Below, in pieces: positions 851-12,982 of a stretch of DNA of 64,000 nucleotides. Within the stretch, counting starts at the first letter, position 1, and each line of letters begins with the position of its first letter. A model generated the notes under the pieces. The model was not told the DNA's origin. It worked only from the letters and a program-made list of their open reading frames with translations, and did no database searches. Source of the DNA: the human T2T-CHM13v2.0 reference genome, Homo sapiens; the NCBI RefSeq assembly GCF_009914755.1, contig NC_060936.1. The stretch is one strand, 5' to 3'. The position numbers and the translations under genes are program-made.

Positions 851-1683
851 CAGTCATGTGCCACAGAATAATGGTGCAGTCAACAACAGACCATATATGC
901 AATGGTGGTCACATAACATTATAACGGAGTTGAAAAATTCCTATCATCTAGTGCTGTCCTGATGATCCTGACCCTGCGTAGGCCTAGGATAACATGTGTG
1001 TTTGTATCTTAATTTTTAACAAAAAAGTTTAAAAAGTAAAAAAGAAAACAAATTAAATAGAGAAAAATCTTGTAGAATAATGATATAAAGAAAGAAAATA
1101 TTTTTGTACAGCTGTACAATGTGTTTGTGTTTGAAGCGGTATTACAGAAGAGTCAAAAAGTTTTAAAAATTAAAGTTTGTAAAGTTATAGTATGCTAAGG
1201 TTAATTTATTATTAAAGAAAGGAAATTATTTTTTATAAATTTAGCATAGCCTAAATGTACAGTTTATAAAGTCTACAGTAGTATACAGTAATGCCCCATG
1301 CCTTCACATTTACTCACTACTTACTCACTGACTCATCCAGAACAACTTCCAGTCTTGCAAGGTCCATTCATGGTAAGTGCCTATACCAGTGTACCACTTT
1401 TGTATTTTATATTTTATTTATACGATATCTTTTCTATGTTTAGACATGTTTAGGTACACAAATACTTACCATTATGTTACAATTGCCTATAGTATTCAGT
1501 ACAGTAACATGCTGTACAGGTTTGTAGCCTAGAAACAATGGGCTATACCATATAGCCTAGGTGTGTAGTAGGTTGTCCCATCTAGGTTTGTGTAAATTCA
1601 CTCTGTGATGCTTGCACAATGACAAAATCACCTGATGACACATTTCTTAGAACATATCCCCCTAGTTAACCAGTACATGATTG
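851..1683 (+). mobile_element. Tigger3/Golem (MER7-type) TcMar DNA transposon, internally deleted
   Basis: TIR-like ends cagtcatgtg... / ...catgattg flanked by TA (849-850, 1684-1685); diagnostic start 'caacaacagaccatatatgcaatggtggtcacataacattataacggagttgaaaaattcctatc'. Confidence 0.9.
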
Positions 1684-2835
1684 TATTTCTTTGAATAAGC
1701 TTTTAGTCCCCTTCTCTTTCTCTTCTCCTTTTGTAACTCTCATAATGCACATATTGTTGTCCCATACTCCTTTAAGCTATCTTCACTCTTTTTTCTTAAT
1801 TTTTGCTCCTCTAAATGGATGATTTCCAATGACCTGGCTTTTTTTCCTGATTCTTTCTTATGTTTGATTTAGTCTTCTGTTGAACCCTTCTATTTAATTT
1901 TTCAGTTTAGTTATTGTATTCTTCAGTTCTATAATTCCTATTTAGTACTTTTAAAATATTTTATATTTCTTTGTTGAAATTATAACTTTGTTCATGCTAT
2001 GGCCCCCTGACCTCTATGAGTATTGTTACGACTGTTATTTTGAATTCTCTGTTTAGTAAATCACATACTTCCATTTCATTAGAGTCAATTTCTGAAGATG
2101 TATCTTTACTTTTATTTGGAATACATTTTCTTATTTATTCATTTTCCACAACTGCGTTGGCCTGTGCATTAGAGAAAATAACCACCTTTCCTAGACTTCA
2201 AAGACTGGTATTGTATAGAAAACCCTCACTAATCAGCTTGGCCAGATATTCTGGGTGCCTCTCAAGCCTTTATGCTGGTTCAAACTGCTGTCCTTTGTTC
2301 TTAGCAGCCCCTAGAAATCTAGAGAATGCCATTTCCCATCAGCACCCAAGACAAACAAAATAGAAGCCAGTTCCTTAAGCAGCAGTCAAAAAAGTTGGGA
2401 AGCTAAATCTGTGGTCCACTTTTTTGCACCACAAGGTAAGTTGGGGGCTGGAGTTTATTGCCCACTTGCTCTGCACTGAGGTGAGAGAGCCACTGTGGCA
2501 ACTTCCCACACAGGTATTAAAACCACACACTTTTTCAAACTACTGTTTGGTCTCTGTAGCCTTCAGGGAACTAACAGATACCAAGTCCCATCAGCTCCCA
2601 GAGACAGGCAAGTTAGAAGCCAGTCCCTGGATATTAGCCAGGAAATTTGGGGTGCTAGTTGTGTGATCGAGCTCTTTCTACTGAGAAGCCAGAAGCTTGG
2701 TTTTATAGGTTTTATTGCCTGAATAAGCCAGGGGGAGGAGCTATGGGAAGTGCCCTGATACCTGTTCAAAATCACTGCTTGCTTTGTTCTGTATAGCCCC
2801 TGGGGACTAGCAAATGCAGGGCCCTGCCAACTTTC
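1684..2835 (-). mobile_element. Old L1M 5'UTR and ORF1 N-terminal part; partner of 12983-19820
   Basis: Reverse complement at the junction reads KSLFKEI, which continues as TAENFPGLWK at 12985. Confidence 0.8.
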
Positions 2836-2860
2836 TGTGAGGGGGGTCGGGGATGGGGGG

Positions 2861-3266
2861 GAGAGAGAGAGAGATAGAAGAAAGATGTATTATATGCAAT
2901 TGGCTCACATGATTATGAAGGCTGAGAAGCCCCAAGATCTGCAGTTGGCGGGCTAGAGACCAAGGAGAGCCAATTTTGTAAATTTTAGTCTCAATCCAAG
3001 TCTAGAGGCAGAGAAGACCAAAGTCCCAGCTCAAAGACAATCAAACAAAATGAGAGAATTCTCTTTCACTTAACCTTTTTCTTCTATGCAGGCTTTCGAT
3101 GGATTGGTTGAGGCCCACTCGTATTAGGAAGGAGAATCTGCTTTTCTCAATCTACTGGCTCAAATGTTAATCTCATCCAGAAACCCTCATTATCCAGAAT
3201 AATGTTTAACCAAATATCTGGCCACTCTGTGGCCCAGTCAAGTTGGGCATAAAATAAACCATTGCA
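2861..3266 (-). mobile_element. MLT2 (ERVL) LTR
   Basis: 'ttggctcacatgattatgaaggctgagaagccccaagatctgcag' and terminal 'ggcccagtcaagttgggcataaaataaaccattgca'. Confidence 0.85.
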
Positions 3267-9981: not shown

Positions 9982-10354
9982 ACAATGACAACACTTGGAC
10001 ACAAGGTGGGGAACATTACACACTGGGGCCTGTCATGGGGTGGGGGGAGTGGGGAGGGATAGCATTAGGAAATATACCTAATGTAAATGACAAGTTAATG
10101 GGTGTTGCACACCAACATGGCACATGTATGCCTATGTAACAAACCTGCATGTTGTGCACGTGTACCCTAGAACTTAAAGTACAATAAAAAATTTAAAAAT
10201 AAAAAATTTTTCCCTGGGAGTTTGCTCATGTCATCAAAATTTTCAAATTTATTTTCATAAATTTTTTTGAAACATCTTATTTTTTTTTAGTATTTGTGGG
10301 ACATATTGTAGTGTTATTTTTATTAGTATTATTGATTACCTTTTTTGTCCTTTC

Positions 10355-11509
10355 TTTTTAATAACAGCTTTGAGATAAATTTACATAAAATAAAATTCAC
10401 ATGCCATAATATTGTAAAGTGTTTTTTAGTATATTCATAGTTGTGCAACCATTACTACTATATAATTTAAGCATATTTTTATTACCCCAAAAGAAACTCT
10501 GTACCCACCACCAAGCAAGGACACTCCATTTTCCCCTACCCCCAGTCTTAAGCAATCACTAATCTACTTTTTGTACCTATGAATTTGCTTATTCTGGACA
10601 TTGTACATGGATGACATTATACAATATGTGGCCTTTTGTGACTGGATTCCTTCAGTTAGCAAAATGTTTTCAAAGTTCATCCATGTCGTAGCATGTATCA
10701 GTAGTTTGTTGCTTTTTATTGCCAAATAACACTTCATTGTATAGATACTACACATTTTGTCCTTTCACTCATTAGTTAATGTATCTTTGAGCTTGTTTTT
10801 CACTTTTTATCCATTATGCTGCTATATAAGTTTTTATGTTTACATATGTTTTCAATTATCTTGTGTATATATCTAGAAGTGGGGTTTCTAGGTCATACTC
10901 TAGGTTTAATGTTTTTGAAAAACTGTCAAACTGTTTGGCAGAGTGGATGTACCATTTTACAGCCCCACCAGCATTCACTGAGGGTCTCAATTTCTCCATA
11001 TCCTCTATAAACTTGTTACTGCCTATATTTTATATTTTAGCCATTCTAGTGAGTATGAAGTGGTATCTCATTGTGGTTTGATTTGTACTTCCCTAATAAC
11101 TAGTGAGGCTAAGCATCTTTTCATGTAATTATTAGCCATCTTAATATCTTCTTTGGGATAAAAGCTTCTTTTTCTATTTTTAATTAGGTTATTTCTCTTT
11201 TATTATTAAGTTTCAAGGATTTCTTAAATATTCTAGATACACATTCCTTACCAGATATATATGTGCAAACATTCTCTCTCATTTTGTTGGTTGTCTTTTT
11301 ATTTTCTTAACTGTGTCCTTTTGAAACCCAAACATTCATAATTGTGATAAAGTCTCATCTACCTATATTTTCTTCTGTCACTTGTGATGTTGGTATTATA
11401 GGTAAGAAATCATTGCCTAACTCAAAGGCATGAAGATTTCCTCTTTTTGGGTTTTATAGTTTTAGCAGTTATATTTAGAACTATGATCCATTTTGTGTTA
11501 ATGTTTGTA
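10355..11509 (-). mobile_element. L1MB-like 3' end (ORF2 C-terminus and 3'UTR); continuation of the element at 1-850
   Basis: Reverse complement from 11509 reads TNINTKWIIVLNITAKTIK; L1MB-type 3'UTR 'acagctttgagataaatttacataaaataaaattcac'. Confidence 0.85.
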
Positions 11510-12982
11510 CAGTTGTATGTCATTTACTGATGGGAATATGTTCTGAGAAATGTGTTGTTAGGGGATTTTGCTATGCAAACATCATAGAATGAATTTACAC
11601 AAACCTAAATAGTATAATGGTATAGCCTACTATATACTTAGATTTTATGGTATAGCTTATTGCTCTTAGGCTATAAACCTGTATAATATGTTATTCTACT
11701 AAATACTGTAGGCAATTGTAACACAATAGTAACTATTTGTATATCTAAACACATCTGAACATAGAAGAGGTACCATAAAATACAGTATAAAGGATTAAAA
11801 AATGGTGCACTTGTATAGGGCACTTACCATGAATGGAGCTTTCAGGACTGGCAGTTCTTCCAAGTGAGTCAATGAGTGAGTGGTGAGTGAATATGAAGGT
11901 CTAGGACATTAACATACACTACTGTAGACTTTATCAACACTGCATACTTAGGCTACGCTAAATTTATTTAAAAATTATCTCTCTTCAATAATAAATTAAC
12001 CCTAGCTCACTGTTAATTTTCTTCTTTACAAACTTTATAATTTTTTTTTTTTTGAGATGGAATTTCACTCTTCTTGCCCAGGCAGGAGTGCAATGGTGCA
12101 ATCTCAGCTCACTGCAACCTCCACCTCTCAAGTTCAAGCAATTCTCCTGCTTCAGCCCCAGAGTAGCTGGGATTACAGGCACCCACCACCACTCCCAGCT
12201 AATTTTTTTGTAATTTTAGTAGAGACAGGGTTTCACCGTGTTTGCCAGGCTGGTCTCGAACTCCTGACCTCAGGTGATCCGCCCACCTCAGCCTCCCAAA
12301 ATGCTGGGATTACAGGTGTGAGCCACCGTGCCCGGCCCAAACTTTTTAATTAAAAATAAATTTACTCCTTTAATAACACTTAGCTTCAAACACACTGTAC
12401 AGGTGTACAAAACTATTTTCTTTCCCTATAAGTTTTTTTTCTATTTACACCTTTTTTGCTTTTTAAAATTTTTGTTAAATAATGAGACATGAACACTAAC
12501 ATTAGCCTATCCCTACACAGGGTCAGGATCATCAGTATCACTGTCTTCCACCTGTACATCTTGTCCCACTGGAAGGTCTTCAGAGGCAATAGCATGCATG
12601 AGGCTGTCATCTATGGTAACAATGCCTTCTTTAGAATACTTCTGGACCTACCTGAAGCTGTTTTATAGTTAACTTTTTTTAATAAGTAGAAGGATTGCAC
12701 TCTAAAATAATGATTAAAAGTATACTATAGTAAATACACAAACCAGTAACATGGTCATTTATTATCATAATAACATAATTGTATTTGCTATACTTTTATA
12801 TAACTGACAATGCAGTAGGTTTGTTTACACCAGCATTACCACAAAAATGTGAGTAATATGTTGGACTAAGATGTTACAATGGCTAATGTCACTAGATAAT
12901 AGGAATTTTCAGCTCCTTCATAATTTAACGGGACCACTGTCATATATGCAGTTCGTCATTGACCAAAACATCATAATGACAG
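11510..12982 (-). mobile_element. Tigger3/Golem DNA transposon interrupted by an Alu
   Basis: Reverse-complement homology to 851-1683; TA at 11508-11509 and 12983-12984. Confidence 0.9.
12041..12337 (-). mobile_element. AluS (Sq/Sp-like)
   Basis: Full dimer with T-tail; TSD caaactttataa / caaactttttaa. Confidence 0.9.

What the first reader, a model, noticed from the sequence alone, without database searches (positions are those of the whole stretch)
851..12982. Cryptic ~11 kb inversion with breakpoints inside two inverted Tigger3 transposons
Seen in sequence: each Tigger3 has mismatched flanks, and the flanks are swapped between the two copies. Left of copy 1, a + strand L1 ORF2 stops at ...ctcacatcacaTA (KSMKFSPSLTSH). 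Its in-frame continuation TAcaaacattaacacaaaatggatc (TNINTKWIIVLNITAKTIK; L1 pattern [22 protein letters not shown]) lies on the minus strand against copy 2 at 11509. Right of copy 1, a minus-strand L1 ORF1 ends ...agcttattcaaagaaaTA (KSLFKEI), and its continuation TAacggctgaaaactttcca (TAENFPGLWK) is on the + strand right of copy 2 at 12983. Flipping the interval restores two L1s, each interrupted by one Tigger3 at a single TA target duplication. Inference: recombination between the inverted Tigger3 copies (or a transposase-mediated event) inverted the interval, so both present copies are chimeras. A plain repeat annotation would list these only as four unrelated L1 fragments.
Basis: partly seen in the sequence, partly recalled or inferred. 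Interest (0 to 1): 0.8.

Follow-up and report, generated by a model that had tools for sequence, protein, structure and literature searches.

The report
Ancient inversion between two inverted Tigger-type transposons
A stretch of about 10-12 kb of human chromosome 12 was flipped long ago by an exchange between two oppositely oriented copies of an old DNA transposon, and the proof is that two older L1 elements become whole again when it is flipped back; it is real, but an ordinary example of a known process in a gene-free region.

Summary
Two homologous, inverted TA-flanked transposon copies (851-1683, minus; 11510-12982, plus) carry swapped L1 flanks. L1-A: the left flank ends opposite human ORF2p residue 956 and the flank beside copy 2 starts at residue 957. 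In three uninterrupted in-window L1 copies both TAs fall on the same two bases. L1-B: the ORF1 frame reads through a single TA. In 8 of 10 uninterrupted genomic relatives the two flank tips overlap by exactly that TA. The window's own genome added a new point. Copy 1 belongs to a short deletion-derivative subfamily whose junction is shared by 17 of 17 short genomic copies, while copy 2 is the long form. The two were therefore separate insertions, not sister copies, which rules out hybrid-element insertion. The exact flanks rule out aberrant transposition with a deletion or duplication. In-register homologous exchange is the best reading (0.85). Chimerism itself could not be shown, because the subfamilies share no diagnostic sites in the common region. 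The event could not be dated and orthologs could not be checked. The kind is known (Alu/L1, Galileo, Ds) and no gene is affected. Interest is low to moderate.

The parts
1..848 (+). L1-A, upstream half: ORF2 up to the residue opposite human ORF2p 956 (runs off the window's left edge)
849..850 (.). TA at the outer end of copy 1 (target dinucleotide of L1-A)
851..1683 (-). Copy 1 of the Tigger3-like transposon, 833 bp, short form (lacks about 351 bp)
1684..1685 (.). TA at the inner end of copy 1 (target dinucleotide of L1-B)
1686..2835 (-). L1-B, 5' part: N-terminal ORF1 and upstream sequence.
2836..10354 (.). Interior carried along by the inversion: L1 piece 3276-3959 (-), Alu about 4017-4364, younger L1 about 5064-10298 (+)
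   Evidence: hub repeat mask
10355..11507 (-). L1-A, downstream half: ORF2 from the residue opposite human 957 to the 3' end.
11508..11509 (.). TA at the inner end of copy 2 (second copy of the L1-A target dinucleotide)
11510..12982 (+). Copy 2 of the Tigger3-like transposon, 1473 bp, long form, carrying a later Alu at about 12040-12346
12983..12984 (.). TA at the outer end of copy 2 (second copy of the L1-B target dinucleotide)
12985..14648 (+). L1-B continued: rest of ORF1 and start of ORF2. It goes on at 16466-19800 after a nested young L1 (14649-16443, -)

Best explanation
Two non-autonomous copies of one pogo/Tigger-type DNA transposon family inserted independently, each at a TA, into two older L1 elements. 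The L1s lay about 10 kb apart on the same strand. One insertion was a short-form element in ORF2 of L1-A, the other a long-form element in ORF1 of L1-B, and they lay in opposite orientation. Later an in-register, homology-guided exchange between the two copies flipped everything between the crossover points. The exchange was ectopic (non-allelic) homologous recombination or an equivalent homology-templated repair. It most probably lay within the roughly 725 bp that the two forms share. The flipped stretch is between 9.8 kb (inner ends) and 12.1 kb (outer ends). The inversion became fixed, or at least is present in this genome. Shown: homology and inverted orientation of the copies, exact swapped flanks, no loss or gain at either target, different structural subfamilies, and colinearity of each copy with its own form. 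Inferred: that the break lies inside the copies (chimerism), and the time of the event.
For: Swapped, exactly abutting flanks. L1-A meets at ORF2p 956|957 and at ruler base 9023, with 3 of 3 uninterrupted in-window references exact. L1-B is exact in 8 of 10 genomic relatives and reads in frame. The copies are inverted homologues. Copy 1's deletion junction is the subfamily junction in 17 of 17 short genomic copies, while copy 2 and 6 of 6 long copies shown do not fit it (structures). So there were two independent insertions. Single uninterrupted alignments of copy 1 to L002, L026 and L035 over positions 1-831/833, and of copy 2's parts to long copies such as L052 and L067, show both present copies are canonical in structure, as an in-register exchange predicts. 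The four ends have TA directly against the termini with no extra bases. Precedent: mismatched or exchanged TSDs are the accepted signature of recombination-mediated inversion (passages of PMC2603318; PMC2775673). Inverted Ds pairs gave inter-transposon inversions, attributed to homologous recombination, in 33 of 300 rice plants (passages of PMC3239180).
Against: Chimerism, which separates recombination from end-based mechanisms, could not be demonstrated. Over 692 shared columns only one (copy-1 position 657) distinguishes short from long copies better than 60 label shuffles. Mean identities are the same within and between forms (0.773, 0.769, 0.769). No patch of raised identity marks a conversion tract (first 500 columns only). 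The copies are now only 76% identical, so the exchange must have been early or used short homology; no date was obtained. No un-inverted ortholog was seen. 2 of 10 L1-B references and 2 weak in-window L1-A references were off by 5-7 bp.
Confidence: 0.85

Rival explanations
1. Transposase-made breaks at the two inner ends. While the family was mobile, its transposase cut at the inner terminus of each copy, and the freed 9.8-kb segment was re-ligated the other way round through the identical short overhangs. A milder version is that a transposase break in one copy merely triggered the homologous repair. In the strict version neither copy is chimeric.
For: The final structure would be the same as observed. 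Both inner termini sit directly against TA with no extra bases. DNA transposons are known to stimulate rearrangement and recombination (passages of PMC3239180; PMC2775673). Chimerism was not shown.
Against: No such scar-free end swap came up in the papers read. Cut-and-paste excision usually leaves footprints (general knowledge, recalled), and none is present. Recombination needs no extra assumption.
Confidence: 0.09
2. Hybrid element insertion, or another aberrant transposition. Ends from two copies at the same site on sister chromatids, or from two copies at separate sites, transposed together into a new target and inverted the segment.
For: The same-site version gives an outcome almost identical to recombination (passages of PMC2775673). 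TA is palindromic, so TSD orientation cannot argue against it.
Against: The same-site version requires the two copies to be identical at origin. Here one is the short form and the other the long form, and the short junction is a family trait (17 of 17), not a private deletion. The separate-site versions produce a deletion or duplication beside the inversion (same paper), but both L1s are restored to the base. Reversed-ends transposition would make the two inner flanks contiguous with each other, which they are not.
Confidence: 0.03
3. No inversion: four unrelated L1 fragments that abut by chance, L1 twin-priming 5' inversions, or an assembly error.
For: L1 fragments are very common, and L1 5' inversions are frequent (2,273 cases, passages of PMC1914374).
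Against: There are two independent base-exact abutments, both at transposon ends and both in the predicted orientation. In twin priming the inverted piece lies within a few bases of the rest, not 9.5 kb away beyond the poly-A side. Repeats of 0.8-1.5 kb at 76% identity are not a plausible source of misassembly (inference).
Confidence: 0.02

Closest known systems
Retrotransposon recombination-mediated inversion (Alu-RMI, L1-RMI) between human and chimpanzee (Lee et al. 2008, PMC2603318; passages read)
   Same: Inverted copies of one repeat family at both ends; the exchange makes chimeric elements whose flanking duplications no longer match; sizes of hundreds of bases to tens of kb.
   Different: Here the repeats are DNA transposons whose 2-bp TA duplication carries no information, so the interrupted host L1 elements serve as the matching flanks. 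The event is old and no outgroup was compared.
Galileo-generated inversions of Drosophila buzzatii (Delprat et al. 2009, PMC2775673; passages read)
   Same: A cut-and-paste DNA transposon, copies in opposite orientation at both breakpoints, exchanged target duplications, and the same set of rival mechanisms to exclude.
   Different: There chimerism was shown from TIR divergence and the standard arrangement was available. Here chimerism is untestable from one genome. The family is pogo/Tigger-type, not P-type. The inversion is small and apparently fixed.
Inversion of the inter-transposon segment between two inverted Ds elements in rice (Xuan et al. 2011, PMC3239180; abstract and passages read)
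   Same: Two inverted cut-and-paste elements a short distance apart; the segment between them is flipped, attributed to homologous recombination (33 of 300 plants).
   Different: That system is experimental, with identical elements 1.1 kb apart and active transposase. This case is a natural fossil with elements of two structural forms about 10 kb apart.
Transposable element-mediated rearrangements in present-day human genomes (Balachandran et al. 2022, PMC9675761; passages read)
   Same: All inversions there had TEs in opposite orientation at the junctions, and most (73%) were consistent with homologous recombination.
   Different: Of 543 events only 1 was TcMar-Tigger, and the 15 inversions analysed in detail were Alu- or L1-mediated. 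Those are polymorphic and recent; this one is ancient.

Membership tests
TE-mediated inversion by ectopic recombination | Two homologous copies of one TE family in opposite orientation at the two ends | tested here: met
   786 aligned positions, 76.1% identity, inverted.
TE-mediated inversion by ectopic recombination | Flanks (target duplications) exchanged between the two copies | tested here: met
   L1-A at ORF2p 956|957 and ruler base 9023; L1-B in 8 of 10 references.
TE-mediated inversion by ectopic recombination | No deletion or duplication at the breakpoints | tested here: met
   Both L1s are restored with only the 2-bp TA repeated. Each copy is colinear with canonical family members.
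TE-mediated inversion by ectopic recombination | Both copies chimeric | tested here: inconclusive
   Only 1 of 692 shared columns separates the two forms. 16 of the 17 'diagnostic' columns are junction misalignment artefacts.
TE-mediated inversion by ectopic recombination | Un-inverted ancestral arrangement seen in another genome | not testable with these tools
   No primate or other mammalian genomes are held.
Tigger3 (Golem) group, pogo-like Tc1/mariner DNA transposons | TA target-site duplication | tested here: met
   TA at all four ends in the window. TA lies just before the aligned 5' end in 24 of 33 genomic copies (my count from the listing) and after the 3' end in 4 of 5. Background TA frequency is 0.084.
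Tigger3 (Golem) group, pogo-like Tc1/mariner DNA transposons | Terminal inverted repeats starting CAG | tested here: inconclusive
   Copy 1 has 16 of 30 terminal bases matching and copy 2 has 8 of 30. Most genomic copies start CAGTCATG. The termini are decayed.
Tigger3 (Golem) group, pogo-like Tc1/mariner DNA transposons | Match to the Repbase/Dfam consensus that carries the name | not testable with these tools
Repbase lists Tigger3 and several derivative families (PMC5753468).
Tigger3 (Golem) group, pogo-like Tc1/mariner DNA transposons | Dispersed multi-copy family with deletion derivatives | tested here: met
   6544 first-look candidates in the genome; short and long forms.
Hybrid element insertion (same-site aberrant transposition) | The two flanking copies identical at origin | tested here: not met
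   Short versus long form, and the short junction is shared by 17 of 17 other short copies.
L1 5' inversion by twin priming | Inverted piece directly adjacent to the rest of the same L1 | tested here: not met
   The pieces are about 9.5 kb apart and end at transposon termini. The adjacency criterion of 6 bp comes from PMC1914374.

The most novel reading that the evidence does not exclude
The flip happened while the Tigger-type family was still mobile and was started by its transposase. Either a break at one copy was repaired off the inverted neighbour, or the two inner ends were cut and rejoined the other way round without a scar. The locus would then be a fossil record of a pogo-type transposase restructuring an early primate chromosome. 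The same single-genome logic (swapped halves of older repeats) could then be used to count such events genome-wide.
Probability: 0.12. Interest if true: 0.45.

Novelty: new member of a known kind. Interest (0 to 1): 0.3.

Why it matters
The locus has no annotated gene, and the two annotated enhancers lie outside the interval, so no functional consequence is expected. Its value is as a clean, base-exact example showing that old inversions between DNA-transposon copies can be recognised in a single genome. The uninformative 2-bp TA duplication is replaced by the interrupted host repeats as matching flanks. Standard repeat defragmentation joins same-orientation fragments only (PMC1914374), so such events go unlinked. 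If dated in other primates, the inversion would be a rare-genomic-change marker. A specialist would not be surprised by the mechanism.

Tried and rejected
1. **Pfam on the ORF1 flanks.** 0 relevant families for 4 queries. PDB search on the ORF1 flanks gave no L1 ORF1p match. The pieces are too decayed.
2. **Short nucleotide tips against in-window ORF1 copies.** These were noisy. The younger copies near 27 kb and 5 kb have two extra codons between GTK and ENFP, leaving a gap of up to about 10 bp there. The older copy near 42 kb gave the exact position, but with a weak score for the right tip (4 against 2 for the next offset). One search replaced this test.
3. **A tblastn hit at 18014-18073.** It proved to be a chance resemblance inside L1 ORF2.
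4. **Whole-length MAFFT of the two copies.** It misaligned copy 1 to copy 2's Alu, so its 65% identity and K2P 0.48 were discarded and the distance was redone block by block.
5. **Search for a transposase remnant in copy 2's extra segment.** 0 relevant Pfam families in 6 frames.
6. **Mapping the crossover through subfamily-diagnostic sites.** Uninformative.
7. **A gap-splitting global aligner for the deletion limits.** Too noisy; replaced.
8. **Short-probe search for family termini.** It found 0 five-prime and 5 three-prime ends, and the 3' ends in the family alignment were unusable.
10. **Literature.** No paper on this particular inversion, or on Tigger-mediated ancient inversions in primates, turned up in the searches. 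This covers only the held library.
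Full report
**What is there.** The exact limits are:
- TA 849-850, copy 1 851-1683, TA 1684-1685.
- TA 11508-11509, copy 2 11510-12982, TA 12983-12984.

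Copy 1, read on the minus strand, aligns to copy 2 in three blocks: 520 bp at 76.9%, 169 bp at 72.8% and 62 bp at 79.0%. A block-wise realignment gives 786 aligned positions, 76.1% identity and K2P 0.30. Copy 2 also holds a later Alu-like insertion at about 12040-12346. It starts with a poly-T run and has AAACTTT[A/T]TAA on both sides. Copy 2 further has about 351-355 bp that copy 1 lacks. The window contains no other member of this family.

**L1-A is restored exactly.** With stops read as X, window 370-849 (+) aligns to solved human LINE-1 ORF2p chains at residues 830-955 for query residues 30-159 of 160 (8uw3_A, E 3e-11). The last residue therefore stands opposite 956. Window 11508-11029 (-) aligns from its first residue to ORF2p 957-1108 (8sxt_A, E 1.7e-6). 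I also used the long younger L1 at about 5.0-10.36 kb as a ruler. Window 145-852 (+) maps to ruler 8323-9025 and window 11508-10607 (-) maps to ruler 9023-9968, so base 850 and base 11508, the A of each TA, fall on the same ruler base. One search's coordinates give the same exact result for the L1 copies near 38-40 kb and 15-16 kb, with seven ungapped bases extrapolated on the left flank. Two other L1 pieces (19 kb, 46 kb) gave offsets of 5-7 bp in weak tip alignments.

**L1-B is restored exactly.** The minus strand of 1684-2163 ends ...GEEKEKGTKSLFKEI, and 12985 onward reads TAENFPGLWK... in the same frame through a single TA. Pfam and the PDB gave nothing for these decayed ORF1 pieces, and in-window references were few and noisy. 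The window's own genome settled the point. A search with the left tip listed 40 matches from 750 first-look candidates. I took 10 of the top 13 non-self rows, dropping three whose match stopped at query 312-361, and fetched about 320 bp around each. In 8 of the 10 the right tip begins one base before the left tip ends, so the two tips share one TA. The references read straight through ...aaaTAatgg.... The other two gave +5 and +7.

**The copies are two different insertions.** Copy 1 has thousands of relatives in the genome (6544 first-look candidates). I fetched 64 distinct loci and kept 33. To be kept, a locus needed one uninterrupted alignment over the shared ~725 bp and an element no longer than 1500 bp. 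Of these, 17 are short, 14 are long and 2 are other. All 17 short copies align across copy 1's junction segment with at most single-base gaps (47-57 of 64 identical). Copy 2 and the six long copies shown fit only its right half. The missing segment of copy 1 is therefore a subfamily trait, not a private deletion, and copy 2 is of the long form. Each window copy is colinear end to end with members of its own form.

**Mechanism.** Delprat et al. 2009 (passages) set out the alternatives:
- **Ectopic recombination** gives two chimeric copies with exchanged target duplications.
- **Aberrant transposition from separate sites** adds a deletion or duplication. That is excluded here by the exact L1 restorations.
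- **Hybrid element insertion from one site** mimics recombination, but the two copies are identical at origin. That is excluded here by the short/long difference.
- **Reversed-ends transposition** would make the two inner flanks contiguous with each other, which they are not.
- **Twin priming** is excluded by the 9.5-kb separation and by the transposon ends at the breaks (criterion).

What remains is an in-register, homology-guided exchange between two independent inverted insertions. A much less likely alternative is a scar-free swap of the inner ends made by the transposase.

**What could not be shown.** The two forms do not differ in the shared region. Mean identity is 0.773 within short, 0.769 within long and 0.769 between forms. 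Only one of 692 columns (copy-1 position 657, where copy 1 is short-type and copy 2 is not) beats 60 label shuffles. The crossover therefore cannot be mapped and chimerism stays an inference. The two window copies are about as alike (0.787 over the shared region) as random family members. This gives no sign of later homogenisation and no date. The family-wide identity of about 0.77 corresponds to roughly 0.14 substitutions per site per copy. With a mammalian rate of about 2.2e-9 per site per year (recalled), that points to insertion some 60 million years ago. The inversion is younger than that by an unknown amount. No ortholog or second human assembly could be consulted.

**Comparison with the known.** The logic is that of retrotransposon recombination-mediated inversions (Lee et al. 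2008), the Galileo inversions and the inversions between inverted Ds pairs. In present-day human genomes all TE-mediated inversions had inverted TEs at the junctions, and one of 543 TE-mediated events was TcMar-Tigger. This is a new example of a known kind. Its one particular feature is that the host L1 halves stand in for the uninformative TA duplication. The family name Tigger3 rests on recall; Repbase lists Tigger3 with several derivative families. My searches of the held library found no report of this inversion.

**Verdict.** The mechanism is most likely ectopic recombination (0.85). Novelty is low and interest is 0.3.

Noticed in passing
window 8398-10191 (+) and 14649-16443 (-): Two young L1 stretches of about 1.8 kb, 96.9% identical and in inverted orientation, lie 4.5 kb apart. 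One is inside the old inverted interval and one outside. The spacer holds copy 2 and parts of both old L1s. This pair is a far better present-day substrate for a recurrent or polymorphic inversion than the old transposon pair.
   Followed up: no
window 1686-2835 (-) plus 12985-14648, 16466-17761, 17884-18148, 18852-19800 (+): Once the inversion is undone, L1-B looks like a long, possibly near full-length old L1 running from upstream of ORF1 to the ORF2 C-terminal region. It is interrupted by the transposon, a young L1 and Alus.
   Followed up: partly
genomic loci L002-L068: The short and long forms of the transposon family have the same mean pairwise identity within and between forms (about 0.77). 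They therefore seem to have spread at the same time from near-identical sources.
   Followed up: partly
window 2279-2424 and 2534-2677: Two roughly 145-bp stretches, 68% identical and in direct orientation, lie inside the upstream part of L1-B. They may be a tandem unit of the old L1 5' region.
   Followed up: no
window 42150-42215: The old L1 ORF1 copy used as a reference carries a short tandem triplication, reading GVPEGDI GVPEGDI GVPEGEG.
   Followed up: no
window 3276-3959 (-): A further old L1 ORF2 fragment lies inside the inverted interval (58% to the ruler, ruler 8376-7658). It overlaps L1-A in L1 coordinates, so it is a separate element.
   Followed up: no
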